A stretch of 37,820 bases of DNA, from IMG/VR virus record IMGVR_UViG_3300014927_000119; one strand, written 5' to 3'. Positions within the stretch are counted from its first letter, which is position 1; every line of letters begins with the position of its first letter. This DNA is from a virus. Its lineage: Duplodnaviria; Heunggongvirae; Uroviricota; Caudoviricetes. Both the position numbers and the translations under genes were made by a program. Under the pieces are notes generated by a model. It ran no database searches and was not told the origin of the DNA. It worked only from the letters and a program-made list of their open reading frames with translations. This document shows, piece by piece, positions 1 through 10,780 of this stretch.

Positions 1-1362
1 ATGTTTAAACCGGAACTCCTTTCCCCGGCGGGAACGCTGAAAAATATGCGTTACGCTTTCGCTTATGGCGCAGATGCTGTTTATGCGGGCCAGCCGCGTT
101 ACTCCCTGCGTGTGCGCAACAACGAATTTAACCACGAAAATCTCCAGCTCGGCATCAATGAAGCCCACGCGCTGGGGAAAAAGTTTTATGTCGTGGTCAA
201 CATTGCACCGCACAACGCCAAGCTGAAAACCTTTATCCGTGACCTGAAACCGGTGGTGGAAATGGGGCCGGATGCGCTGATTATGTCCGATCCAGGGCTG
301 ATTATGCTGGTGCGTGAGCACTTCCCTGAAATGCCGATCCATCTCTCGGTACAGGCTAACGCCGTGAACTGGGCGACGGTGAAATTCTGGCAGCAAATGG
401 GCCTGACCCGCGTGATCCTCTCTCGCGAGCTGTCGCTGGAAGAGATTGAAGAGATCCGCAATCAGGTGCCGGATATGGAGGTAGAGATCTTCGTTCACGG
501 CGCGCTGTGCATGGCCTACTCCGGTCGCTGCCTGCTCTCTGGCTATATCAACAAGCGCGACCCGAACCAGGGCACCTGCACCAACGCCTGCCGCTGGGAA
601 TACAACGTCCAGGAAGGGAAAGAAGATGACGTTGGCAACATCGTACACAAGTACGAGCCGATTCCGGTGCAAAATGTTGAGCCGACGCTGGGTATCGGCG
701 CACCAACCGACAAAGTGTTTATGATCGAAGAGGCCCAGCGTCCGGGCGAGTATATGACCGCGTTTGAAGATGAGCACGGCACTTACATCATGAACTCGAA
801 AGATCTGCGCGCCATCGCCCATGTAGAACGCCTGACCAAAATGGGAGTGCATTCGCTGAAAATCGAAGGCCGTACCAAATCTTTCTACTATTGCGCACGC
901 ACCGCGCAGGTTTACCGTAAAGCTATCGATGACGCAGCTGCGGGAAAACCATTCGATACCAGCCTGCTGGAAACTCTGGAAGGTCTGGCGCATCGTGGCT
1001 ATACCGAAGGTTTCCTGCGTCGTCATACTCACGACGATTATCAGAACTACGAATACGGTTATTCAGTTTCTGACCGCCAGCAGTTTGTTGGTGAGTTTAC
1101 CGGTGAGCGCAAGGGCGACCTCGCGGCGGTAGCGGTGAAAAATAAATTCTCCGTTGGTGACAGCCTTGAGCTGATGACGCCGCAAGGCAACATTAACTTT
1201 ACCCTTGAGCACATGGAAAACGCCAAAGGTGAAGCTATGCCGGTCGCACCAGGCGATGGTTATACTGTGTGGCTCCCGGTCCCGCAGGATCTTGAGCTAA
1301 ATTACGCGCTCCTGATGCGTAATTTCTCCGGGGAAACCACGCGTAACCCCCACGGTAAGTGA
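1..1362 (+). CDS. yegQ: YegQ, peptidase U32 family protein (host gene)
   Basis: 453-aa ORF starting at window position 1; N-terminus MFKPELLSPAGTLKNMRYAFAYGADAVYAG matches my recollection of E. coli YegQ; followed by cyaR as in the E. coli yegQ-cyaR locus. Confidence 0.9.
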   Translation: MFKPELLSPAGTLKNMRYAFAYGADAVYAGQPRYSLRVRNNEFNHENLQLGINEAHALGKKFYVVVNIAPHNAKLKTFIRDLKPVVEMGPDALIMSDPGLIMLVREHFPEMPIHLSVQANAVNWATVKFWQQMGLTRVILSRELSLEEIEEIRNQVPDMEVEIFVHGALCMAYSGRCLLSGYINKRDPNQGTCTNACRWEYNVQEGKEDDVGNIVHKYEPIPVQNVEPTLGIGAPTDKVFMIEEAQRPGEYMTAFEDEHGTYIMNSKDLRAIAHVERLTKMGVHSLKIEGRTKSFYYCARTAQVYRKAIDDAAAGKPFDTSLLETLEGLAHRGYTEGFLRRHTHDDYQNYEYGYSVSDRQQFVGEFTGERKGDLAAVAVKNKFSVGDSLELMTPQGNINFTLEHMENAKGEAMPVAPGDGYTVWLPVPQDLELNYALLMRNFSGETTRNPHGK

Positions 1363-1396
1363 TTAATTTCGATTATTTTTCCCGGATGGAAAATTC

Positions 1397-1440
1397 TTAG
1401 AAACCGATCACATACAGCTGCATTTATTAAGGTTATCATC
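1397..1440 (+). promoter_or_regulatory. cyaR promoter: CRP-like site TTAGA-N6-TCACA (1397-1412) plus -10 TATCAT (1434-1439)
   Basis: Half-site TCACA at 1408-1412 and a weaker left half, centred about 42 bp upstream of the presumed CyaR 5' end at 1447; -10-like hexamer ends 7 nt before that position. CyaR is known to be CRP-activated. Confidence 0.55.
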
Positions 1441-1446
1441 CGTTTC

Positions 1447-1533
1447 GCTGAAAAACATAACCCATAAAATGCTAGCTGTACCAGGAACCACCTCCTTAGC
1501 CTGTGTAATCTCCCTTACACGGGCTTATTTTTT
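1447..1533 (+). ncRNA. cyaR: CyaR (RyeE) Hfq-dependent sRNA; 3' terminator hairpin overlaps the prophage att core
   Basis: Sequence GCTGAAAAACATAACCCATAAAATGCTAGCTGTACCAGGAACCACCTCCTTAGCCTGTGTAATCTCCCTTACACGGGCTTATTTTTT matches the CyaR sequence as I recall it, ending in a CCCTTACACGGG hairpin and a T-run. Confidence 0.85.
1507..1533. repeat. attL core (P2-type 27-bp att core, AATCTCCCTTACACGGGCTTATTTTTT)
   Basis: Exact 27-bp direct repeat of 36004-36030 (identity extends to 28 bp); it is the reverse complement of the P2 attP core AAAAAATAAGCCCGTGTAAGGGAGATT as I recall it. Confidence 0.9.
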
Positions 1534-1596
1534 ACGCGTAATACAATGAAATAAAAGGATTTATTTCTGGTCACGTCCACACATTGACCACATCGA

Positions 1597-1623
1597 CAAA
1601 AAAAGCCCCTCGACTGAGGGGCT
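1597..1623 (-). terminator. Rho-independent terminator downstream of ogr
   Basis: Perfect 8-bp stem AGCCCCTC/GAGGGGCT (1604-1611 / 1616-1623) with loop GACT, followed on the minus strand by a T-run (A-run 1598-1603 on plus). Confidence 0.7.
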
Positions 1624-1635
1624 TCCTGTTTGTAA

Positions 1636-1854
1636 TTACATCCACATAATTTGCTGCCCTGACGGCAACGGGTGCGGTCTTACGGCGTGGACTTCTCCCG
1701 GCTTCACGATGTATCGCTGTACCGACTCATAAGTGATGAACGTGGCGCTGCAATTCACGTTCTGACACTGGTGATAACGCTCTTTTGTCGTGTCAGTGAT
1801 ATAGCGGCTTGTACGCGCATGTGCGGCATGCTGGCATAAAGGACAATGAAACAT
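1636..1854 (-). CDS. ogr: Ogr, zinc-finger activator of late transcription
   Basis: 72-aa product MFHCPLCQHAAHARTSRYITDTTKERYHQCQNVNC... with CxxC...CxxxxC zinc finger; start taken at the internal ATG (1852-1854) preceded by GGAAGAGG; P2 Ogr is 72 aa. Confidence 0.9.
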   Translation of the reverse strand: MFHCPLCQHAAHARTSRYITDTTKERYHQCQNVNCSATFITYESVQRYIVKPGEVHAVRPHPLPSGQQIMWM

Positions 1855-1935
1855 CGCGAGCACCTCTTCCGGTTTTGTTGATGGTGCCATTTTAGTTAAA
1901 TTACCCTTATAAAACAAACAGATAAAATAAAAACA

Positions 1936-3099
1936 TCACTCATCATCTTCTGTTTCGTACTCCACATCAGAAAGCCTTACCTCAAGCTCTAAGGACGTCG
2001 TGAAGCCGCTATTATTCAGAAAATGTGTCACCTTAGTGATTGTCCAGTCCTGCTCGTCTATGACGCGCTTAAAGCCTGACACTTTGACCGGCGTTTCCGT
2101 GTAAATATCTGCCCGACCGGTAGCCAGACTGATGGAGAACTCCGCCACACCCCGTTGCAGTTTATCCCACTTCGCCTGAGCGGCGCGCATGGCCTGCGCT
2201 TTCGTGGCATATACCGTAGTCAGGGCAAAAACGTTGTCAGCCTCACCGGCCATGTATTCACCTTCGCGCGCTTCCGGTACTTTTGGCGCTTTCTTCTGCG
2301 TGACCGGTTTCGCTTTCGGGTGCTCCAGTGCGCGCAGGTGTTTTTCTTTCTTTTTGCGTTTCAGTTTTACCTTCTGCTTTTGCGGCTTCGGGTCTTTGGT
2401 ATGTAACCACTTTGCCGTTACGCCGGTGTAAGCTCCACGGTCAGCAATCGCAAAATGATGACGGTCGCCGTCGCTGCGGGTGATGGTAATCTGCGGGATT
2501 TTTTTACCGCTGGCCGTCACCCCCTGCCCCGCTTTGAGAAACAACAGTTTTCCCATTTTTACCGACACCTCACCGCCGTTGCGTTCTGCAAGGCGGGTCA
2601 GGAATTTTGCATCAGACTCCTGCGACTGGTCGATGTGCGGAATTTTAATTCCGGCCAGTGACGGAGCGACACTGGCTTCCAGCCTGTTACGGGAGGCTAT
2701 CGCCTCAACAATCGCACCGAGCGTGGTGTCATGCCATGAGCCTTCCCGGCGGGAATTGAGCGTCCCGCGAAAATCTGCACTCCGGGCGCGGATGGTGACC
2801 ACATCCGGCGCGCCCCGGTGTTCAACCTCATCAACGGTGAATTTCCCTTTGCATACCAGGGCAAAACCTTTCCAGCCGATATACACCGTCAGGACAGCGC
2901 CACGAACCGGCAGCCCAACCTGCCCGTCGGCATCGTTCAGTTCAATATCAAGCTGATCAGCCTCAAAGCCCCGGTTATCCGTCAGGGTCATGCTCATCAG
3001 ACGGTCGCTGATATTGCCGGTAATATCCCTGCTGTCGAGCATCAGCATGTAATCCGGCGTCAGCGTACTGCCTGCATCAAATGTCAGCGCATCCAGCAT
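1936..3099 (-). CDS. D: Tail protein D
   Basis: 387 aa, same length and position as P2 gpD (after U, before ogr); lysine-rich central linker. Confidence 0.9.
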   Translation of the reverse strand: MLDALTFDAGSTLTPDYMLMLDSRDITGNISDRLMSMTLTDNRGFEADQLDIELNDADGQVGLPVRGAVLTVYIGWKGFALVCKGKFTVDEVEHRGAPDVVTIRARSADFRGTLNSRREGSWHDTTLGAIVEAIASRNRLEASVAPSLAGIKIPHIDQSQESDAKFLTRLAERNGGEVSVKMGKLLFLKAGQGVTASGKKIPQITITRSDGDRHHFAIADRGAYTGVTAKWLHTKDPKPQKQKVKLKRKKKEKHLRALEHPKAKPVTQKKAPKVPEAREGEYMAGEADNVFALTTVYATKAQAMRAAQAKWDKLQRGVAEFSISLATGRADIYTETPVKVSGFKRVIDEQDWTITKVTHFLNNSGFTTSLELEVRLSDVEYETEDDE

Positions 3100-3578
3100 T
3101 ATCCCGCCCCCGTCATACCCGTGAATTTAGTCGCCATACTGCCAGCCTTACCGATGAGCGATTCCGCCTGTTTACCGATATCGCCATAAAGCGCGGCCAG
3201 TGATTCATCAACGCGGGTGAGCGACAGCGTAAAATCAATTTTTCGGGGTGTGCCGTCTGCAAAGAAAATACTCCCTGTTTCACTCACCCTGCTGATGACA
3301 TACATGCCGTAAATCATGCCGGTGCCATCCAGCAACGGCCACGCCCGGCCTTCATCTGCCATCAGCCTGAGCGTGGTCATCGTCAGCTTTCCGCCGGTCA
3401 GTTCGGGATAAAGCACACCGGCAAGCGTGATGTTTTCCTCACCCACACCGAGAAACTGGTAGGCATCCCGTTTACCGATACGGGAATTTGACGGCCAGCG
3501 ATAATCTGATTCACGCTGCATGGTCTGGTGTGGCAGCGTCTGGCGCATAAAAACAAACATACCTAACGCGAGCATCAT
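3099..3578 (-). CDS. U: Tail protein U
   Basis: 159 aa, matches P2 gpU length and position; overlaps the D start by 1 nt. Confidence 0.9.
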   Translation of the reverse strand: MMLALGMFVFMRQTLPHQTMQRESDYRWPSNSRIGKRDAYQFLGVGEENITLAGVLYPELTGGKLTMTTLRLMADEGRAWPLLDGTGMIYGMYVISRVSETGSIFFADGTPRKIDFTLSLTRVDESLAALYGDIGKQAESLIGKAGSMATKFTGMTGAG

Positions 3579-3592
3579 TTTTCGTCACCTCC

Positions 3593-6040
3593 TTAACCGT
3601 CATGCATCATGCTGGCACGGGCGCGCGCACGTTTATCCCGCTCGTATTTTTCGAGCGCATCCTGTAACTGGCGGTCGAGCTGAGTCCCAGGCGCAGTACC
3701 GCCCGTCAGACTGATGTGATATTCGTTTTTACTCTGGTCCACATAAGAGCGGCCAGCCGGTGCCGTGACCGGCTGATAAGCCTGATAGGCTGCATAAGAG
3801 CTGGTCGCCGGAATATAACCACCGGTGCCATACGTGGCGGTATGAGTTCTGGCGGCGGTCTGGTCAAGTGTGTCTGACTCTTTGTTGATAACCCCGAGTT
3901 TTTCCAGTACCCAGTCTATACCGCTGCGCAGTTTGTTGAACGCATTAAGCGGCAGCATCAGCGCGTCAGCCAGTGCCTGCCCGAACATGACGCCCGTGTC
4001 ACGGCAACGGTTCAGGGTGTCCTGGGTGGCTTTGACCGGGGCAATCAGGTTTTTAAACCACTGCCACGCGGCCTGTAACTTTTCGCCCAGCCAGTCAAAC
4101 ACCGGCTTCAGTGGCGTGAACAGTTCCCCCACCGGCGCAAATGCCGCTTTCAGCCCTTCAACCACACCGCCAAAGAATGCGCTGACAGGCTCCCAGTATT
4201 TATGGATAAGCAACGCCCCGGCGACAATGGCGGCCACCACGGCCACAACCGGCCAGCTAATCGCCCCGATGGCCGTCATAACAGCACTGCCAACCGTCGT
4301 GAAGATTGCCCCCATTGCGCCTGCTGCCGCGATAATGGCATTGATGCCGGTGATAACCGGCCAGGCTACAAGACCAATGGCACCGATGATGCCAATAAGC
4401 GCCAGCGCGCCACCGACAATGAGACCGATGGTTGACGCCAGTGATTTGTTTTTCTGTATCCAGCCGTCGAGTTTTAACACATACTTTGTGGCCGTCTGAG
4501 TGAGCTTACGCAGTGCGCCTTCCTGCTGGTCAAACAGGTCAGTCCCCACCGCCTCATAAGCGGACTGAAACTCCTTAAAGTCACCGCCGAGGTTATCCTG
4601 CATGATTTTAACCAGCTCTTCCGTTTTACCGTCCGAGGCTTTCAGCGTGGCGGTCAGCGTATCCAGTTTTCCGCTTGCTGCCGCTGCCAGTAAAACGTTC
4701 GCTGATTTCAGGGCTTCCTCACCAAAAATGGTTTTAAGGTATTCCCCCTTCTGAGACGTTCCCAGCTTATGCTTATCAAAGCTGGCCTGAATCTCTTTCA
4801 GAATGGTGAACAACGGACGCATATTTCCCTTTTTGTCCGAGGTTTTAACGCCAAGCTCTTTGAGTGCATCCCATGCTTTTCCAGTCGGTGCCTGTAATCG
4901 GGTGACAACGGCACTGCTACCCGTACCCGCCATTGACCCCCTGATGTTATTGTCATGCAGCACACCGGTCATGGCCGCTGCCTGCTCAAGACTTACATCT
5001 GCCGTCCTCGCAACCGGGCCGAGGTAAGTCAGTGCATCACTGAGTCCCTGAAAATCAGCCGCCGACTTATTCATCGTTGCCGACAACACGTCGCCCACAT
5101 GGCTGACATCATCATTTGACAGTTGAAAGGATGCCTTAGTCCCCAGCAACAGTTGCGCGTTTTCTTCCATCGACCGCTGGTTTGCCAGTGCCATATTCAG
5201 TGTGACCGGCGTTGCTGCCTGAATAGCCGCAGCATCTCCACCCGCTTTCGCAATGATAATCTGTGCACCGGCTGCATCATCTGCCGAGGCGGCGGTATTG
5301 TCGCCGAGCTGGCGCGCCTGCTTGCGGAGTGCAGCCATTTCGGCGGAGTCTTTTGCCACACCTAGCACGGCCTGCAATTCTGAGTTTTTCTGCGCAAACT
5401 CATAACCGGGCATCAGCAGCTTAACACCGGCCATCGTTCCCGCAGCAGCAATCCCCACACCGGCAGCGCCCACTGAGGCCATATTTCCGGCCAGTTCCTT
5501 TCCGGCTTGATAACGCTGTTTGACTGCGTTAAGTTTTGCCTGTTGCGCACTGACACGCGTCAGCGCGTCACGCTGACGGTTAAGCTGTGCGGTGGTTTCA
5601 CTGATACGGTTTTTCAGTCCCTGCTCATCATGTGCAAGATTGCGGGTATTAATTCCCACAGTGGCCAGTTCCCGCTGCTGACGTTTAACGGAATCCGTCA
5701 GGCGGTTATATTTTGCCTGTAAGTCCTCCGCCGCACGCTTTGCGGATTCCAGCACTTTCGCCTGAGCACGGGTCGGACGTTCGGTGTTTTTAAACTGTGT
5801 GGCAAGGGCTTCGGCTTCCTGCCGTGCCTTTTCAAGTGCATGACCAGTCACGGCGAGCTGTGCACTGGTCTTGCGAAATCCCTCAATACGGGATGCCTGA
5901 CCGTTCAGCTCGCGCAGTGATTTTTGTGTTTCCCGGATATCCCCCGACAGCGATTTGCTCGCTGTGCGGATGGATTTAAACGGGCGGGATGCCTGGTCAA
6001 CAGCCCTGAGCAATACCTGTAATTTTACATTGTTACTCAT
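3593..6040 (-). CDS. T: Tail tape measure protein T
   Basis: 815 aa (P2 gpT is 815 aa); Ala/Gly-rich, coiled-coil N-terminus and hydrophobic central segments typical of tape measure proteins. Confidence 0.92.
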   Translation of the reverse strand: MSNNVKLQVLLRAVDQASRPFKSIRTASKSLSGDIRETQKSLRELNGQASRIEGFRKTSAQLAVTGHALEKARQEAEALATQFKNTERPTRAQAKVLESAKRAAEDLQAKYNRLTDSVKRQQRELATVGINTRNLAHDEQGLKNRISETTAQLNRQRDALTRVSAQQAKLNAVKQRYQAGKELAGNMASVGAAGVGIAAAGTMAGVKLLMPGYEFAQKNSELQAVLGVAKDSAEMAALRKQARQLGDNTAASADDAAGAQIIIAKAGGDAAAIQAATPVTLNMALANQRSMEENAQLLLGTKASFQLSNDDVSHVGDVLSATMNKSAADFQGLSDALTYLGPVARTADVSLEQAAAMTGVLHDNNIRGSMAGTGSSAVVTRLQAPTGKAWDALKELGVKTSDKKGNMRPLFTILKEIQASFDKHKLGTSQKGEYLKTIFGEEALKSANVLLAAAASGKLDTLTATLKASDGKTEELVKIMQDNLGGDFKEFQSAYEAVGTDLFDQQEGALRKLTQTATKYVLKLDGWIQKNKSLASTIGLIVGGALALIGIIGAIGLVAWPVITGINAIIAAAGAMGAIFTTVGSAVMTAIGAISWPVVAVVAAIVAGALLIHKYWEPVSAFFGGVVEGLKAAFAPVGELFTPLKPVFDWLGEKLQAAWQWFKNLIAPVKATQDTLNRCRDTGVMFGQALADALMLPLNAFNKLRSGIDWVLEKLGVINKESDTLDQTAARTHTATYGTGGYIPATSSYAAYQAYQPVTAPAGRSYVDQSKNEYHISLTGGTAPGTQLDRQLQDALEKYERDKRARARASMMHDG

Positions 6041-6460
6041 TCGTGTTTCCGCTTCGCCGGAGCGCCTTTTCGCGCCATGTGATGAGTTCGGTCAGGCTCA
6101 TGGGATACAGTTCTGATGGCGGCCAGTGAAATATCACTGCCACATCCGCCATCAGGTCATCGACCGACAGATTTTTCGGGAACGTCACTGCACCGAGTTC
6201 GGCGACAAAAAACCGACCACCTTACCGGCCAGCGCCACAAGGTCAGGCAGTTCCAGCGCGGCGACTTCCTGCTCGGTCAGCATCGGTGCCGTCATGCGCG
6301 GCAGCACCTTAATCAGTGCATCGACTTCGGAGTTTGCGACCGCAGCCAGACTGACACCGCGCAGCGTCCCGGCATTGGGTTTCATCAGCGTGACCTGTTC
6401 GATAACCTGCTCACCACGCTTGACCGGATTGTCCAGGGTAATCACATTTTCTTTGTTCAT
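6033..6460 (-). CDS. E': Tail assembly chaperone E+E' (product of a programmed -1 frameshift)
   Basis: Slippery heptamer T TTT TTG (minus strand, plus coordinates 6212-6206) in the E frame; translating the -1 frame from 6206 gives VAELGAVTFPKNLSVDDLMADVAVIFHWPPSELYPMSLTELITWREKALRRSGNTNE and a TAA stop at 6033-6035, for a 142-aa fusion (P2 E+E' is 142 aa). Confidence 0.8.
6185..6460 (-). CDS. E: Tail assembly chaperone E
   Basis: 91 aa, matches P2 gpE length; sits between FII and T. Confidence 0.9.
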   Translation of the reverse strand: MNKENVITLDNPVKRGEQVIEQVTLMKPNAGTLRGVSLAAVANSEVDALIKVLPRMTAPMLTEQEVAALELPDLVALAGKVVGFLSPNSVQ

Positions 6461-6516
6461 GGTTTTCTCACTTCTGAATCAGGGTTAACCGGTCAGCCAG
6501 GCTGACCGGATGAAAA

Positions 6517-7035
6517 TCACAGGCCGATATTTCGGCGGTGTTGCTCCAGCCGGTCGACGCCGTTCACCTTCTCAATCATGTTGATGGTGTCGATTTCGAC
6601 CAGCTCCTTACCGTCCATCGTCAGCCGGAAATAGGTGCAGACCACAGAGATTTTCGACTCGGTGTCTTCTCCCTGTTTACCCTCGCCGGTGTCGATTTCT
6701 TTCTGACGTCCACGCATGACCACCTCGACGGCCACCGTTTCGCCGGTATCGTCGCGCTGGTAAGAGCCTGCAAAACGAATCGGCACGACATCCACACCGG
6801 TTGCTGCGTAAAGCTCCCAGATAACCGAATCCGGGAAACCACCGAGCGACCACTCCATTGACAGGGCATCGTCATCAAGGCCGAGGTCTACCGGTGCGCT
6901 GCCGTTCATCCCCGCACCGCGATAGTTTTCGAGCTTACGGGTCAGTTTTGGCAGCGTGACGGACTTTGCAACGCCCTGATAGCTGTAGCCGTTCAGAAAG
7001 ACGTTCATTAACTTGAGTTTGCGCGGCATTGCCAT
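6517..7035 (-). CDS. FII: Tail tube protein FII
   Basis: 172 aa, P2 gpFII length and position. Confidence 0.92.
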   Translation of the reverse strand: MAMPRKLKLMNVFLNGYSYQGVAKSVTLPKLTRKLENYRGAGMNGSAPVDLGLDDDALSMEWSLGGFPDSVIWELYAATGVDVVPIRFAGSYQRDDTGETVAVEVVMRGRQKEIDTGEGKQGEDTESKISVVCTYFRLTMDGKELVEIDTINMIEKVNGVDRLEQHRRNIGL

Positions 7036-7047
7036 CGGTCAGGCTCC

Positions 7048-8238
7048 TTAATTGCTGTTAACCGAGGTGACCAGATTTGCCAGATATTTATCGGTGATAC
7101 GCTGGCGCAGGGTCAGGTTTTCAAGAGGAGGCACCGGGGTATAGTCGTAGTCGATATACAGTTTTCCTGCCTTGAGGGTTTCCGCATCGTTGGATTCTTC
7201 GCTGAACCAGCAGGTCGCATCCACGATATAGCCGTTTGTTTTCAGCTCACGGAATTTGGCATTGATGCCGTCAACGATGTCGCGAATCAGCGTTGCGGTG
7301 ATGGGCTTGTCCACCGCCCACATGTGCGCCTCAGCCATCGTGTCGGCCATCACCTGCGCGGTGCGGGTGTAGTTTTCAAAGAGGAACAGCGGGTCATCAG
7401 AGCAGGTACGGTTACCCCAGAATCGGAAACCGTCGCGGCGAATCAGCGTAGTGACGCCTGACTCGTTAAGCAGGTCAGCATCGGTGCCGGACTCCTGCAA
7501 ATCCCAGAATACAGATGCGCTGATGCCGGTAACACCGTTCACCCCGACGTTGGACAGCGTTTTATGCCAGCCCTGCTCCTGGTCGATTTTGGCACGCAGA
7601 CCCAGCGCACGGGCGGTGGCATACGCGGTGGCGGTGGTACTGGTGACCGTATCCCATGCGAGGAAATCCGGCCAGATGACCATCAGCTCACGCTGGCTGA
7701 AATTCTGGCGGTAGGCTTTCACCTCGGAAATGGTCTTACAGCCCCATGCGCTGATATACCCGAAAGCGCGCAGCTTCTGACAGACTGATGCCAGTGCAAC
7801 AGCCACCTCTTTGGTATCCAGTCCCGGCACGCCGAGAATACGCGGTTTAACACCGGTTACCGACTCCGCCGCCAGCAGGGCTTTCAGTCCGGTGTACTGG
7901 CCGTTTTCGTCGGTGGTGCCGATGATATTGGACACGGTCTGCGCGAGTTTCGTTTCTTCATCGTCGCCGGTGCCGTCTTCCACACGCACGACAACGGTGA
8001 CCGGTTTTGACTGGTCGGCGATGGCCTGCAACGATGCCGCCAGCGTGCCTTTTTTACCGGCCTTTGCAATTGCGCTCTGCACATTGGTAATCAGCACAGG
8101 TTTATTGAGGGGGAAGGTTTCCGCATCCGCATCGCTGGCCGTGCAGACCATGCCGACAATGGCAGTGGATACAGTGGAAATGACGCGGGTGCCCTCGTTA
8201 ATCTCCAGCACCTGCACGCCGTGATGATAGTTACTCAT
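7048..8238 (-). CDS. FI: Contractile tail sheath protein FI
   Basis: 396 aa, P2 gpFI length and position; GGAG 9 nt upstream of the ATG. Confidence 0.92.
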   Translation of the reverse strand: MSNYHHGVQVLEINEGTRVISTVSTAIVGMVCTASDADAETFPLNKPVLITNVQSAIAKAGKKGTLAASLQAIADQSKPVTVVVRVEDGTGDDEETKLAQTVSNIIGTTDENGQYTGLKALLAAESVTGVKPRILGVPGLDTKEVAVALASVCQKLRAFGYISAWGCKTISEVKAYRQNFSQRELMVIWPDFLAWDTVTSTTATAYATARALGLRAKIDQEQGWHKTLSNVGVNGVTGISASVFWDLQESGTDADLLNESGVTTLIRRDGFRFWGNRTCSDDPLFLFENYTRTAQVMADTMAEAHMWAVDKPITATLIRDIVDGINAKFRELKTNGYIVDATCWFSEESNDAETLKAGKLYIDYDYTPVPPLENLTLRQRITDKYLANLVTSVNSN

Positions 8239-8523
8239 CCGTTTAACTCCGTGGTTAATGGGCGCAACTATTTTCTGTTGTGCAGAGCATGAGACGCTAT
8301 TTGACCTGGCTGGTCAGTGGATGAAACAACAGACAAAGAAAAGGCGGGTAATCCGCCAGCCTGTCATGATTTGCACTCACTCCTTTTCCAACTGACAATT
8401 TACATAGCCCAAACGCTATCAAATCTGACAGTCTGCTTTGAGCGAATAGCGGACCTTACTTTTACTGTGGTATATTAATCAAAGGAAGTTTTTACATCAT
8501 TTAACCCAGAAAGGATGTTATTT

Positions 8524-9153
8524 ATGGCACGAACATACCCGTCAGAATGGAGTAAATTTTGCAAGACCATAAATACGAATAATGGATTTTCATATTACAC
8601 CAGTAATATTAAAGCCCAAATTCTTATTGGAGACATAAATCGATTTGCTGCCAGATATGCTGTGGCAGAGGACTTCAACGGTGTTGATATTATGGGTTCT
8701 ACTATAGAAACAAGGCTTGGGTATGAAGCATTGATGAGGGCATTACTTACCTGGAGCGTCGTGGAAACATATTTTAATATATTTTCAGTCGGATTAACTG
8801 ATGTTTATACATGTTTTCCTTTTACACAAAAGGAAAAGCATGACATCAGAAGCAAACTTAATGCGATTGGTAATGACACAATTAAATTTTATACATTCAT
8901 TTCTTTGAATTGTAACGCTCGTCATAAAACAAACACAAATGACTTTATAGCGAATAATGATTTTAACCCAATAATGCTATTGTCTGCCATTCGTCATGTT
9001 TTTGGCCACGGTGATCTAAGCGCTAATGTTAATAATGTTGACCCTGAATCAATAAATAAAATCGTAAATATCTTAAAGAAAGAAATTATAACTAAAATAG
9101 ATACTTCTTTCTCTTTATTAGTTCAAATGCACCCTAATTATTCTACTGTATGA
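8524..9153 (+). CDS. Hypothetical protein, cargo ORF in the Z/fun slot (209 aa from ATG 8524; 212 aa from ATG 8515)
   Basis: AT-rich ORF on the strand opposite the late genes; AAGGA (8511-8515) 8 nt upstream of ATG 8524; TGgTATATT extended -10-like element at 8468-8476. No motif I can recognise. Confidence 0.6.
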   Translation: MARTYPSEWSKFCKTINTNNGFSYYTSNIKAQILIGDINRFAARYAVAEDFNGVDIMGSTIETRLGYEALMRALLTWSVVETYFNIFSVGLTDVYTCFPFTQKEKHDIRSKLNAIGNDTIKFYTFISLNCNARHKTNTNDFIANNDFNPIMLLSAIRHVFGHGDLSANVNNVDPESINKIVNILKKEIITKIDTSFSLLVQMHPNYSTV

Positions 9154-9298
9154 TCTTGATGATAGGTTTTTACGAAAATAATCACCTTGGGTTATTTGAT
9201 GGATACTTTTTTTAAGTAACCCTTATTAATTTACACATTATTTCTGCCATATCCTTAGCTGATACAAGGTGAACGTCCCACGTAGTATTTTACCATTA

Positions 9299-10048
9299 TT
9301 ACTGGCTATTCAATTCCCACTCAATACAGTCAGTCATCATAGGAATAAAACTTTCACAAGATGAAGAAAAAACCTCGACAAATTTCGATTTATAACTTTC
9401 TGGAACATGCCAATCCTGAGGGATGCTATCTACGATAGATTGATAATAATCAACTGGTATTTCACATATTCTATTCATCCATAATGAATACCCTTCTATA
9501 GCATGGATATTTCCACAATGATATGGCGATGATTCAGTAAATAATTGATTAGGAGTCCAGATAAGGCCGTCCTCACCCCATGTACTGCCATTATTATCTA
9601 CAAAAGCAATGCCAGCATCCATAAATAGCAATTTATCATTTAACAACTTGCAAGTGTCATTTTTTACATCGCCTATAGATAACCAATTATCAAATATTGA
9701 TTTCCCATACAGATCACTCAACTGGTCGTTACTATATTGATAATTTTCAGGCAACTCTTTTAAATCATGTATGAACTCATATGCAATAACACATGAAGTT
9801 GATATTTTTAGTTCACTTCTTACATTTTCAGAAAGTTGTACAACATGGCCTTTTGGCCAAGGCAACTCTATTTTTTCGGCTAGTTTAAAAGCCACATACT
9901 CATTAAATAATGCTTTAAATTCATGCCCAGATTCGTTTAAATATGTTTTTACAAACCACTCTCCCCCTAACTCATCAGTACCTATAAAAGGATGAGAATG
10001 ACTTATCGACTTTTCCAGCTTATCGCTAATGACATTAATTGTTATCAC
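9299..10048 (-). CDS. Hypothetical protein, cargo ORF in the Z/fun slot (249 aa, GTG start)
   Basis: AT-rich ORF; first in-frame start is GTG at 10048-10046 with AAGG 5 nt upstream; contains LGGEWFVK, GDVKND and FMDAG motifs that loosely resemble kinase-fold signatures. Confidence 0.55.
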   Translation of the reverse strand: MITINVISDKLEKSISHSHPFIGTDELGGEWFVKTYLNESGHEFKALFNEYVAFKLAEKIELPWPKGHVVQLSENVRSELKISTSCVIAYEFIHDLKELPENYQYSNDQLSDLYGKSIFDNWLSIGDVKNDTCKLLNDKLLFMDAGIAFVDNNGSTWGEDGLIWTPNQLFTESSPYHCGNIHAIEGYSLWMNRICEIPVDYYQSIVDSIPQDWHVPESYKSKFVEVFSSSCESFIPMMTDCIEWELNSQ

Positions 10049-10252
10049 GGGGACCTTAAATAATCATAAAATGATGAATGAATTATAATTGGATAACCAA
10101 GAGCAGTCCAAACAATTTCTAGCGATTAGTTGATTACCTGCATATTAGCGTTTTGTTGATTTTTGATGTCTGCTTCTGGCACAGAGCGGACTGTCAGATT
10201 AGTCTTTACTCTGTGTCATAGATATGTCAGCTCACACCAGAGCTCATACAAC

Positions 10253-10780
10253 TTATTGCGGCATTTCCGGCCATTTAGGATTTGCAGGATCCACACGACT
10301 GACCAGAACGCTGTAACGCTCCCATGCATCCAGTCGGCTACGCTCCTCATCTGTTGCCATGTTCAGTCTGACCGCGCGCTCCAGCGGCAAAATCACGGAT
10401 TCAGCATCTGCAAGAAGTCTGGCTTTCCGGTTTTCTGCCTGCTGCAGCAATTCCTCTGCCGTATAAATGCGTTTAATCACTTTGCCGTCCTTAAACATCC
10501 AGCCCCCTGAAATGTCCGCCCGTCGGTTAGCAGTAATATCCGCCACTTCAACAACACTTAATCCATCCGGTCTGATAGCTGTCACATCCTTTTCCACATA
10601 GCGGATAATATTATCTTTGTCGTACGCTATTTTTATCGTGTCATCAGCAAAATACTTTTGTTCTTCGTACCAGTTCTTACCATCTTCTGAAAAAAACCAG
10701 ACAACATCAAAACCCTTTGTCAATTGATATTGTTCAACCGTTTTTGGATTACCCGCCGTAATATTTTTTAAATGCTGCAT
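10253..10780 (-). CDS. G: Tail fiber assembly protein G
   Basis: 175 aa, P2 gpG length; immediately downstream of H. Confidence 0.9.

What the first reader, a model, noticed from the sequence alone, without database searches (positions are those of the whole stretch)
8440..9153. Orphan 209-aa gene with its own extended -10 promoter, transcribed against the late-gene direction
ATG 8524 has a good Shine-Dalgarno (AAGGA, 8-nt spacing), and a TGgTATATT extended -10 lies at 8468-8476 with no convincing -35. This suggests constitutive expression from the prophage independent of Ogr, as expected for lysogenic-conversion or defence genes such as P2 fun. The protein has no recognisable motif.
Basis: partly seen in the sequence, partly recalled or inferred. 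Interest (0 to 1): 0.55.

Follow-up and report, generated by a model that had tools for sequence, protein, structure and literature searches.

The report
Solo HEPN-like defence cassette in P2 prophage
The 209-aa gene is real, carries its own conserved promoter, and most likely encodes a previously unclassified HEPN-type RNase that a P2-like prophage holds as a self-contained, swappable anti-phage cassette at the known Z/fun hotspot.

Summary
The ORF 8524-9153 (+), the AAGGA Shine-Dalgarno 8 nt upstream and TGgTATATT at 8468-8476 are all present. That motif is the only TGNTATAWT in the window and is invariant in five homologous loci.

The gene lies in an AT-rich island at the P2 Z/fun hotspot. 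Relatives sit beside Shedu, retron, Gabija-like and SIR2-HerA genes. The adjacent HipA-like kinase is an independent cargo gene, not a partner.

The island is bounded by inward-facing 24-nt sites of two core types. These sites delimit many cassettes elsewhere, and exchange points map to the central 7 nt.

RNase activity, expression and defence remain untested.

The parts
8422..8454 (+). Left boundary of the AT-rich cargo. It is a 24-nt 'A-type' site, GTCTGCT-TTGAGCGAAT-AGCGGAC (8431-8454, core GAGCGA), preceded by the P2-flank bases AATCTGACA. It occupies about -53 to -30 of the predicted promoter.
   Evidence: It forms a 33-nt inverted repeat with 10168-10200. The site family gives 26 hits against 0.95 expected in session loci and at least 120 hits in IMG/VR against about 1 expected. 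The outer side is conserved phage flank and the inner side is variable cargo.
8468..8476 (+). Extended -10 promoter element TGgTATATT, with no usable -35. The predicted transcription start is about 8483-8485.
   Evidence: Read directly. It is the only TGNTATAWT in the window. It is invariant in 5 loci.
8511..8515 (+). Shine-Dalgarno AAGGA, 8 nt before the ATG.
   Evidence: invariant columns.
8524..9153 (+). Coding sequence for the 209-aa protein ('A209'), predicted to be a stand-alone HEPN-fold RNase. Core helices are about residues 35-50, 61-87, 149-161 and 174-201, with a helical insert at 88-148.
8992..9012 (+). Codons for R157-H158-V-F-G-H162-G163, the predicted catalytic Rx4H motif.
   Evidence: R157, H162 and G163 are invariant. 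H158 is conserved in at least 90% of sequences across 63- and 150-sequence alignments. The definition is from PMC3710099.
9189..9222 (.). AT-rich hairpin (GGGTTATTTGA...TTAAGTAACCC) in the 3' untranslated region. It is a possible weak, bidirectional terminator between the convergent genes.
   Evidence: Seen in the fold, but not significant against shuffles (z -1.5). The segment is partly conserved in L012 and L013.
9251..9274 (-). Decayed 'B-type' boundary-site remnant (ATCCTTAGCTGATACAAGGTGAAC on the + strand). It marks the original right end of the A209 cassette.
   Evidence: It aligns with the site GTCCTTAGCTGGCACACAGCAGAC, 16 of 24 identical. That site lies 115 nt after the stop codon in L012 and L013. 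Homology to those loci ends here.
9299..10048 (-). Neighbouring cargo gene: a 249-aa HipA_2-family kinase, convergent with A209. It is a separate module that now shares the same outer boundaries.
   Evidence: Pfam PF20613, E 1.6e-7. Homologues occur alone in other islands, with no A209 relative called among their neighbours. It is absent next to A209 homologues.
10082..10110 (-). Promoter-like site for the kinase (TGGACT-17-TATAAT, 10 of 12 matches).
10168..10200 (-). Right boundary of the cargo. It is a 24-nt 'B-type' site (10168-10191; read inward GTCCGCT-CTGTGCCAGA-AGCAGAC, core GTGCCA), followed by the P2-flank bases TGTCAGATT.

Best explanation
The 209-aa protein is a stand-alone member of the HEPN superfamily, which comprises metal-independent RNases. 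It belongs to a widespread family that no searched library has catalogued. A P2-like prophage carries it as a single-gene 'moron' or defence cassette at the Z/fun hotspot.

The cassette brings its own -35-less extended -10 promoter and Shine-Dalgarno sequence. The gene can therefore be read in the lysogen, antisense to and independently of the late tail operons. The protein is presumably held inactive until a superinfecting phage supplies a trigger. The composite R157/H162 site, helped by H158 and E81, would then cleave RNA (tRNA, mRNA or rRNA). This would arrest translation and abort the infection.

Shown here: the gene is real and under purifying selection. The promoter and ribosome-binding motifs are conserved with the gene. 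The HEPN sequence and topology features are present in a confident model. The gene is a self-sufficient unit, because it lies alone between boundary sites in several lineages. It sits in a known defence hotspot, and its relatives sit among defence systems.

Inferred only: transcription in lysogens, RNase activity, the trigger, the target and the phage-resistance phenotype.
For: Gene and promoter.

HEPN features, judged against the definition in PMC3710099:
- The Rx4-6H motif is present. R157 and H162 are invariant in the 63-sequence alignment and at least 90% conserved in the 150-sequence one.
- The residue after R is H, one of the typical N/D/H residues.
- The motif lies at the end of helix 149-161 and the start of the loop leading to the last helix, 174-201 (pLDDT 91, pTM 0.89).
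- An invariant acidic residue, E81, lies in helix 2 (residues 61-87).
- A three-helix insert lies between helices 2 and 3.

Pfam: five weak matches (E 0.004-0.02) among 213 family-member scans (the window protein was scanned twice) fall on HEPN_RiboL-PSP or HEPN_Apea.

Context:
- The gene sits in an AT-rich island (29-37% GC against about 55%) at the P2 Z-region.
- An 88%-identical homologue in Yersinia frederiksenii lies next to a G homologue, after Shedu, a retron and an IS110 element.
- Other homologues lie immediately upstream of a SIR2-HerA cassette, near Gabija-like genes, downstream of a P4-type primase (that position is a minor P4 hotspot according to PMC13586616), and at a prophage integrase edge.
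- A209 lies alone between boundary sites in L005, L012/L013 and L015.
- Cassettes bounded by the same sites carry DRT, retron, CBASS Cap2 (E1-E2), TIR and PDC proteins.
Against: No sequence-profile method places the protein in any known HEPN family. Pfam, NCBIfam, PHROGs and PADLOC are negative for the protein itself. They are also negative for family consensus sequences. The PDB sequence search is empty. Foldseek against PDB and BFVD gives nothing significant.

The acidic residue is not in the usual Ex3[K/R] context.

Distant cyanobacterial relatives sit in unremarkable neighbourhoods or toxin-antitoxin-rich ones.

No expression, biochemical or phage-challenge data exist.
Confidence: 0.58

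Rival explanations
1. A209 is the toxin of an addiction (toxin-antitoxin) module whose main role is to stabilise the cassette or prophage. It would be neutralised by an unrecognised antitoxin, such as a small RNA, a small upstream ORF or a host factor, rather than acting as a phage-triggered defence.
Against: No protein partner is conserved across loci. No nucleotidyltransferase was found among the neighbours surveyed. A209 is the only gene between boundary sites in three or more lineages. The 160-aa ORF lies beyond a boundary site. Toxin-antitoxin and abortive-infection roles are not mutually exclusive.
Confidence: 0.15
2. A209 and the convergent HipA-like kinase form a two-gene system in which one regulates or antagonises the other.
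For: They share one pair of outer boundary sites in the window. They co-occur on all 24 contigs read that carry the exact protein, of 31 index blocks. Convergent transcription across a 145-nt gap could couple their expression.
Against: None of the 24 loci then held with A209 homologues encodes the kinase. Kinase homologues in Morganella, Proteus and Dickeya have no A209 relative among their called neighbours. An 88%-identical A209 lies next to the G homologue in a Yersinia prophage without the kinase. A decayed boundary site between the two genes shows that two cassettes fused.
Confidence: 0.07
3. A209 is a non-catalytic helical protein, for example a binding, regulatory or anti-defence factor. 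On this view the RHxxxH motif is structural, and the gene serves another lysogenic-conversion function.
For: There is no sequence-level family assignment. The structural matches are only moderate. Some HEPN domains are non-catalytic (PMC3710099).
Against: Non-catalytic HEPN domains typically lose the Rx4-6H motif. Here R, H and the upstream Glu are the most conserved positions of a family averaging 12-27% column identity.
Confidence: 0.12
4. The ORF is silent or decaying cargo. The promoter-like motif would be a chance AT-rich match, and H-NS-type silencing would keep it off.
For: In AT-rich DNA, -10-like hexamers are common. The promoter scan found fewer sites than in shuffles. No expression data exist.
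Against: dN/dS is 0.13-0.25. All 24 close homologues are 203-214 aa, so the reading frame is intact. The -10, Shine-Dalgarno and ATG are invariant across loci with dS up to about 1.2.
Confidence: 0.05

Closest known systems
Single-gene HEPN abortive-infection proteins (lactococcal AbiV, AbiU2, AbiD/AbiF, AbiJ; DUF4145-type HEPN proteins)
   Same: It is a small, all-helical, stand-alone protein. It has a predicted HEPN bundle with an Rx4H motif and no obligatory partner. It is carried on mobile elements and defence islands. A DUF4145 protein occupies the very same P2 slot in some E. coli prophages.
   Different: It has no detectable sequence similarity to any of them: PADLOC and Pfam are negative, and hhalign against the DUF4145 protein gives 0.2% probability. 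It has a roughly 34-residue N-terminal extension and a 60-residue three-helix insert. AbiV lacks the canonical H (PMC3710099), whereas A209 keeps it. Defence is not demonstrated.
HEPN toxins of HEPN-MNT toxin-antitoxin pairs (for example Shewanella SO_3166, PDB 5yep; 7ae2; 8xdj)
   Different: No adjacent MNT nucleotidyltransferase antitoxin was found. A209 is about 70 residues longer. There is no sequence-level relationship.
P2 Fun(Z), the gene at the same position in phage P2 (its T5-exclusion role is cited from memory), and other Z-region 'lysogenic conversion' ORFs (P2-EC67 ORF1, AJ512685)
   Same: It occupies the same slot between FI and G. The cargo is AT-rich and foreign. It is flanked by the same inverted repeats, which are annotated in AJ512685 and present in degenerate form in P2.
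   Different: The proteins are unrelated. A209 is transcribed in the opposite direction to P2 Z/fun.
pdif modules of Acinetobacter plasmids and engineered recombinase-mediated cassette exchange (analogy for the boundary sites; recalled from memory)
   Same: Gene modules are bounded by short recombination-type sites in inverted orientation. There are two non-identical site types per module, and cassettes are exchanged between unrelated backbones.
   Different: The site sequence is different (GTCCGCT-yTGwGCsAAk-AGCGGAC). No recombinase is identified. Neither Xer binding nor any other binding has been tested.

Membership tests
HEPN superfamily (Anantharaman et al. 2013, PMC3710099) | Conserved Rx4-6H motif | tested here: met
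   The motif is R157-HVFG-H162. Both R and H are invariant in the 25- and 63-sequence alignments and at least 90% conserved in the 150-sequence alignment.
HEPN superfamily (Anantharaman et al. 2013, PMC3710099) | [quoted passage not shown] | tested here: met
   H158 is at least 90% conserved. The definition was read.
HEPN superfamily (Anantharaman et al. 2013, PMC3710099) | [quoted passage not shown] | tested here: met
   In the AlphaFold2 model (pLDDT 91), a helix spans 149-161, a loop spans 162-173 and the last helix spans 174-201. This is a predicted structure, not an experimental one.
HEPN superfamily (Anantharaman et al. 2013, PMC3710099) | A second conserved acidic residue in helix 2, typically within Ex3[K/R] | tested here: inconclusive
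   E81 is invariant and lies in helix 61-87. The residue at +4 is N or E rather than K or R.
HEPN superfamily (Anantharaman et al. 2013, PMC3710099) | [quoted passage not shown] | tested here: met
   Residues 88-148 form three short helices: 102-113, 117-128 and 132-142.
HEPN superfamily (Anantharaman et al. 2013, PMC3710099) | Fold similarity to solved HEPN domains | tested here: inconclusive
HEPN superfamily (Anantharaman et al. 2013, PMC3710099) | Profile-level match to a curated HEPN family | tested here: not met
   There is no Pfam, NCBIfam or PADLOC hit for the protein or for family consensus sequences. Only five weak matches among 213 family-member scans (E 0.004-0.02) fall on HEPN_RiboL-PSP or HEPN_Apea.
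HEPN superfamily (Anantharaman et al. 2013, PMC3710099) | Metal-independent RNase activity leaving 2',3'-cyclic phosphate ends | not testable with these tools
   This needs biochemistry.
Known Abi or defence HEPN systems in PADLOC (AbiV, AbiU, AbiD and others) | Match to the system's HMM | tested here: not met
   There are 0 PADLOC families at E up to 1.
HEPN-MNT toxin-antitoxin | Adjacent minimal nucleotidyltransferase antitoxin gene | tested here: not met
   No nucleotidyltransferase neighbour appears in the window or in any surveyed locus.
HipBA-like kinase module including A209 | Conserved co-occurrence of A209 with the HipA_2 kinase | tested here: not met
P2 Z-region cargo / phage 'moron' | Foreign-composition insert between conserved phage genes, with its own promoter | tested here: met
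   GC is 29-37% against about 55%. Only the flanks match E. coli prophages and phages. The position equals P2 Z/fun. The -10 is conserved. The terminator is weak or uncertain.
P2 Fun(Z) protein family | Sequence homology to P2 gp22 (Z/fun) | tested here: not met
   BLASTP gives E 7.8, and hhalign gives 0.3% probability.

The most novel reading that the evidence does not exclude
A209 would found an undescribed single-gene HEPN abortive-infection family. It would also ride in a natural cassette-exchange system. Defence cassettes in several backbones are bounded by inward-facing 24-bp sites of two heterospecific types (cores GAGCGA and GTGCCA). These backbones are P2-like prophages, Qin/Rac-like lambdoid prophages, a P4-like satellite, an ICE-like island and plain chromosomal contexts. 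Neighbouring cassettes are separated by exactly 18 nt, and crossovers are confined to the central 7 nt. This would imply a still-unidentified site-specific recombinase that moves ready-to-express defence genes between unrelated mobile elements. The site's 3' arm lies where a -35 hexamer would be.
Probability: 0.3. Interest if true: 0.85.

Novelty: new member of a known kind. Interest (0 to 1): 0.55.

Why it matters
If confirmed, the protein adds a broadly distributed family (at least 500 clusters at 50% identity) to the list of single-gene HEPN RNase defences. Members were seen in Gammaproteobacteria, Betaproteobacteria and Cyanobacteria, with one metagenomic Actinomycetota record. PADLOC-DB 2.0.0 (2023) does not detect the family. 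The family is small enough (209 aa, about 0.85 kb with its promoter) to test quickly.

The boundary sites offer a mechanistic handle on an open question raised by recent hotspot surveys (PMC9122126, PMC13586616): how do defence genes swap so fast and so cleanly between P2, P4 and other elements? Here the same cassette is seen in a P2 Z-region and in a lambdoid hotspot, with both junctions inside the 24-nt sites.

The sites also give a simple sequence rule for harvesting candidate defence cassettes from genomes.

Tried and rejected
Searches and comparisons that found nothing:
- Pfam, NCBIfam, PHROGs and PADLOC on the protein gave nothing meaningful.
- Family consensus sequences against Pfam gave no HEPN hit.
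- A PDB sequence search with a 63-sequence profile gave nothing relevant, even at E up to 10.
- Foldseek against PDB and BFVD gave no hit with E below 0.3. The AFDB50 library was unavailable.
- hhalign of the family profile against P2 Fun(Z) and against the DUF4145 HEPN protein from the same E. coli hotspot gave no signal. The templates were single sequences, so these negatives carry little weight.
- tblastn of A209 and of the kinase against 50,697 phage records gave no match.
- Megablast of the cargo against 5,426 complete E. coli genomes and against the phage collection matched only the flanks.

Ideas tested and rejected:
- A two-gene A209-kinase system was rejected.
- No conserved partner emerged among the convergent 160-aa and 178-aa ORFs. 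They are not mutually homologous, have no Pfam match, and at least the 160-aa ORF lies beyond a boundary site.
- Rfam found nothing credible on the island.
- The boundary sites are not notably stable hairpins. As DNA they fold at -4 to -6 kcal/mol, with z-scores of -0.8 to -1.9. A simple terminator or hairpin explanation is therefore not favoured.

Literature:
- No description of the 24-nt sites turned up in the two P2/P4 hotspot papers or in full-text searches.
- Nilsson et al. 2004 (Mol Biol Evol 21:1) probably reported the Z-region repeats, but it is not held in the library.
Full report
**1. What is there**

The window is a P2-like (Peduovirus) prophage. The finding lies between two late genes. 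One is the tail sheath gene FI (7048-8238, - strand). The other is the tail-fibre assembly gene G (10253-10780, -), followed by tail fibre H. In phage P2 this slot holds Z/fun. In GenBank record AJ512685 it is annotated as the 'Z-region', with left and right inverted repeats around a 'putative lysogenic conversion protein'.

The DNA from about 8455 to 10167 is 29-37% GC, against about 55% in the flanks. Megablast against 5,426 complete E. coli genomes and 50,697 phage records matches only the roughly 225-nt FI-side and roughly 70-nt G-side flanks, never the cargo.

The cargo holds two convergent genes. One is the ORF in question (8524-9153, +, 209 aa, here called 'A209'). The other is a 249-aa HipA_2-family kinase (9299-10048, -; Pfam PF20613, E 1.6e-7).

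The exact A209 protein occurs on all 24 public contigs read, of 31 index blocks, always in this same arrangement. The kinase's nearest named relative is 99% identical and comes from Citrobacter werkmanii. The host may therefore be Citrobacter or a close relative, but this is not established.

**2. Check of the observation**

Every feature is present at the stated coordinates.
- The ATG is at 8524.
- AAGGA is at 8511-8515, with an 8-nt spacer.
- TGgTATATT is at 8468-8476.
- The -35 positions match TTGACA at only 1-2 of 6 bases.

TGNTATAWT occurs exactly once in the 37.8-kb window, at this site. An alignment of the upstream regions of five loci shows TGGTATATT, AAGGA and ATG to be invariant. The loci are the window, Yersinia frederiksenii, Y. 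enterocolitica, Pantoea ananatis and a metagenomic contig. The most distant of these has dS of about 1.2 in the coding region, and its upstream DNA is otherwise diverged. This conservation is good comparative evidence for a functional promoter and ribosome-binding site.

The conserved start is MARTYP (8524), not the upstream in-frame ATG at 8515. dN/dS of 0.13-0.25 confirms a protein under purifying selection. Expression itself could not be tested.

**3. The protein**

The gene is not an orphan.
- A word-indexed search found 24 homologues with 41-90% identity. The named ones come from Yersinia, Pantoea, Serratia, Vibrio, Psychromonas, Moritella and 'Grimontella'.
- An exhaustive profile search found 500 cluster representatives at E up to 1e-3, and 218 at E up to 1e-10.
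- A further profile search added Cyanobacteria and a metagenomic Actinomycetota record.
- Nearly all are about 200-aa single-domain proteins. None has a Pfam assignment, and the source names shown are all 'hypothetical' or 'uncharacterized'.

Across 63 diverse members, the only invariant positions apart from the start Met are R44, Y67, E81, R157, H162 and G163. H158, F160 and L165 are at least 90% conserved (likewise). R157-H-V-F-G-H162 is an Rx4H motif.

The AlphaFold2 model is confident (pLDDT 91, pTM 0.89) and all-helical. I compared it with the HEPN definition as written in Anantharaman et al. 2013 (PMC3710099). That definition has these features:
- a four-helix bundle;
- frequent helical inserts between helices 2 and 3;
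- a polar N, D or H residue after the R;
- a conserved acidic residue in helix 2.

A209 fits feature by feature.
- Helix 1 is about residues 35-50 and carries R44.
- Helix 2 is 61-87 and carries Y67 and E81.
- The insert is 88-148 and forms three short helices.
- Helix 3 is 149-161 and ends in R157-H158.
- The loop is 162-173 and starts with H162.
- Helix 4 is 174-201.

The weak points are as follows:
- Foldseek finds nothing.
- No profile method links the family to a curated HEPN family.
- The only profile-level trace is five marginal matches among 213 family-member scans (the window protein was scanned twice). All five fall on HEPN_RiboL-PSP or HEPN_Apea.

I rate the HEPN assignment at about 0.75.

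**4. Context: a self-sufficient single-gene module among defence genes**

The kinase is not a conserved partner.
- None of the loci carrying A209 homologues encodes it.
- Kinase homologues sit alone at a Morganella prophage integrase edge, in a Proteus island and in a Dickeya ICE-like region. No A209 relative is called among their neighbours.

A209 relatives occur in these places:
- In Y. frederiksenii (88% identity), directly next to a homologue of the window's G protein. There it follows a Shedu gene, a retron (RT + AAA_15 ATPase + a third gene) and an IS110 transposase.
- 368 nt upstream of a SIR2-HerA pair, on contigs that also carry type-IV-secretion-type genes.
- A few kb from Gabija-like OLD-ATPase and UvrD genes.
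- Immediately downstream of a P4-alpha-type primase. PMC13586616 describes this position as a minor P4 defence hotspot.
- Between a P2-type integrase and the chromosome in Serratia.

No neighbouring protein family recurs across these loci.

**5. The cassette boundaries**

This was noticed while checking the promoter, and it changes the anatomy. The cargo is bracketed by a 33-nt inverted repeat (8422-8454 and 10168-10200). Its core is a 24-nt element with consensus GTCCGCT-yTGwGCsAAk-AGCGGAC.

The element is common.
- It recurs 26 times in about 230 kb of session loci, against 0.95 expected.
My own estimate of the chance expectation is about 1.

In every instance examined, the outer side is conserved backbone and the inner side is variable, AT-rich cargo.

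Consecutive elements mostly face each other: 67 pairs face inward, 25 face outward, 5 are ++ and 5 are --. They enclose 0.5-5.8 kb holding 1-4 genes.

I sampled the largest cargo protein from 20 cassettes. Eight hit PADLOC models: DRT UG17, retron I-C RT-Toprim, PDC-S15, a TIR protein, CBASS E1-E2, PDC-S33 and Hp2.

The elements come in two core types, A (GAGCGA, 104 instances) and B (GTGCCA, 95 instances).
- All 72 inward-facing pairs are heterotypic (46 BA, 26 AB, 0 AA, 0 BB).
- 19 of 26 outward-facing junctions have a gap of exactly 18 nt.
- All 23 junctions with a gap under 100 nt are also heterotypic.
- One caveat applies: many pairs are repeats of a few hotspot types, so the number of independent contexts is much smaller than 72.

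The exchange point can be mapped.
- Instances with the same cargo but different backbones differ at element positions 4 and 8.
- Instances with the same backbone but different cargo differ at positions 16, 17, 21 and 24.
- The exchange point therefore lies within the invariant central positions 9-15.

One example is a 444-aa PDC-S15 cassette. It occurs in a P2 Z-region (L058) and in a lambdoid hotspot (L050), with both junctions inside the elements.

The lambdoid hotspot lies between a DUF977 gene and hokD-rem-ydfU, in Qin/Rac-like prophages. Its flank is present in 1,516 of 5,426 complete E. coli genomes. Reference P2 itself has degenerate A and B sites around Z/fun.

The sites are not strong hairpins. 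Sequence-specific recognition is therefore more likely than structure alone. No recombinase is consistently nearby, so the mechanism is unknown.

The GenBank annotation of AJ512685 shows that inverted repeats at the Z-region were noted about 20 years ago. The title of Nilsson et al. 2004 also points that way. That paper could not be read here. The recent hotspot papers I could search do not mention inverted repeats, hairpins or palindromes.

**6. How the boundaries bear on the finding**

- First, the A-type site occupies about -53 to -30 of the A209 promoter, and its 3' arm AGCGGAC covers the -35 position. This explains why no -35 hexamer exists. In IMG/VR loci, extended -10-like motifs (TGnTAnnnT) are enriched 0-30 nt inside the sites. 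Counts per 10-nt bin are 9, 17 and 7, against about 3 further into the cargo and about 1 on the backbone side. The instances are not independent. Cassettes thus seem to arrive ready to be expressed.
- Second, A209 is the only gene between an A site and a B site in L005 and in L012/L013. In L015 it lies between two sites that both classified as B-type, the upstream one degenerate.
- Third, the window retains a decayed B-type remnant at 9251-9274. It is 16 of 24 identical to the L013 site, and homology to L012 and L013 ends there. The window's island is therefore a fusion of an A209 cassette (about 8431-9274) and a kinase cassette (about 9275-10191).

**7. Most likely function**

The most likely function is a prophage-borne, single-gene, HEPN-type RNase that acts as an abortive-infection or exclusion factor. 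It would be expressed in the lysogen from its own promoter. This parallels P2 fun in role but not in ancestry.

How a solo RNase is kept harmless is unknown. The N-terminal 34 residues and the 60-residue insert are candidates for autoinhibition or sensing.

The rivals are a toxin-antitoxin or addiction role (0.15), a non-catalytic function (0.12), a two-gene system with the kinase (0.07) and silent cargo (0.05).

**8. Novelty and verdict**

The slot and the general idea (defence cargo in P2 hotspots) are established (PMC9122126; PMC13586616). HEPN Abi proteins are a known kind.

Three things are new:
- The family-level assignment of an uncatalogued, widespread protein family to the HEPN superfamily.
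- The demonstration that it is a solo module.
- The regular architecture of the boundary sites.

I rate the finding as a new member of a known kind, with interest 0.55. The more novel reading is a natural heterospecific-site cassette-exchange system with an unidentified recombinase. The evidence does not exclude it, and it deserves direct testing.

Noticed in passing
window 8431-8454 and 10168-10191; also L013, L015, L021, L022, L005, L001 and IMG/VR loci L026-L145: A 24-nt element, GTCCGCT-yTGwGCsAAk-AGCGGAC, bounds AT-rich gene cassettes. It always points inward and comes in two core types (GAGCGA and GTGCCA). All 72 inward-facing pairs are heterotypic. Exchange points map to positions 9-15. 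It occurs in P2 Z-regions, Qin/Rac-like lambdoid prophages, a P4-like element, an ICE-like island and chromosomal sites.
   Followed up: partly
L013 2222-2287; L015 6730-6795; 19 of 26 outward-facing junctions: Adjacent cassettes are separated by exactly 18 nt between two outward-facing sites, giving a 66-nt junction module. The spacers are loosely similar to one another (a..CTAACTGA..tg.AG).
   Followed up: partly
window 9299-10048 (-), promoter-like site 10082-10110 (-): A 249-aa HipA_2-family kinase sits as a second, independent cargo gene. Homologues (62-99% identity) in Citrobacter, Morganella, Proteus, Dickeya, Serratia and Xenorhabdus sit alone at prophage edges and in islands. It has no PADLOC model, so it is a candidate single-gene defence or toxin kinase.
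   Followed up: partly
window 9251-9274: A decayed B-type boundary site lies between the two convergent genes. The present island therefore arose by fusion of two cassettes. No A-type site is recognisable for the kinase cassette.
   Followed up: yes
L001 (Yersinia frederiksenii ATCC 33641) 1-7336: Next to a homologue of the P2 tail-fibre assembly protein G lies an array with boundary sites between units. The order is Shedu (SduA_C), site, retron-like RT + AAA_15 ATPase + 243-aa gene, IS110 transposase, site, A209, then the G homologue. I did not check whether FI lies on the far side.
   Followed up: partly
L050 versus L058 (IMG/VR): The same 444-aa PDC-S15 cassette is present in a lambdoid DUF977-hokD hotspot and in a P2 Z-region. 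Both junctions fall inside the 24-nt sites.
   Followed up: partly
IMG/VR loci, first 30 nt on the cargo side of the sites: Extended -10-like motifs (TGnTAnnnT) are enriched 10-20 nt inside the boundary sites, the same layout as the A209 promoter. The site sits where a -35 or an activator or operator site would be. The instances are not phylogenetically independent.
   Followed up: partly
window 8343-8357 (-): A terminator-like GC hairpin with a T-run lies in the conserved P2 flank, just upstream of FI on the late-gene strand. It is positioned to stop read-through from the fibre operon or the cargo before the FI promoter.
   Followed up: no
L155 6780-7663 (Scytonema hofmannii): A distant A209 homologue is preceded by a 72-aa ORF ending 3 nt before its start codon. 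It lies among ParE, PIN and baeRF genes. This hints that some family members may have a small antitoxin-like partner.
   Followed up: no
L012 1012-1494 (-), L013 4107-4589 (-), L021 6894-7430 (-), L022 6188-6724 (-): Small convergent ORFs (160 aa and 178 aa) lie downstream of A209 homologues. They have no Pfam match and no mutual similarity by BLASTP. Their function is unknown. The 160-aa ORF lies outside the A209 cassette.
   Followed up: partly
L154 (E. coli STEC2017-197) 4500-7000; flank present in 1,516 of 5,426 E. coli genomes: A very common Qin/Rac-like prophage hotspot lies between a DUF977 gene and hokD-rem-ydfU. It is bounded by the same sites. In this strain it holds a 449-aa hypothetical protein.
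   Followed up: partly
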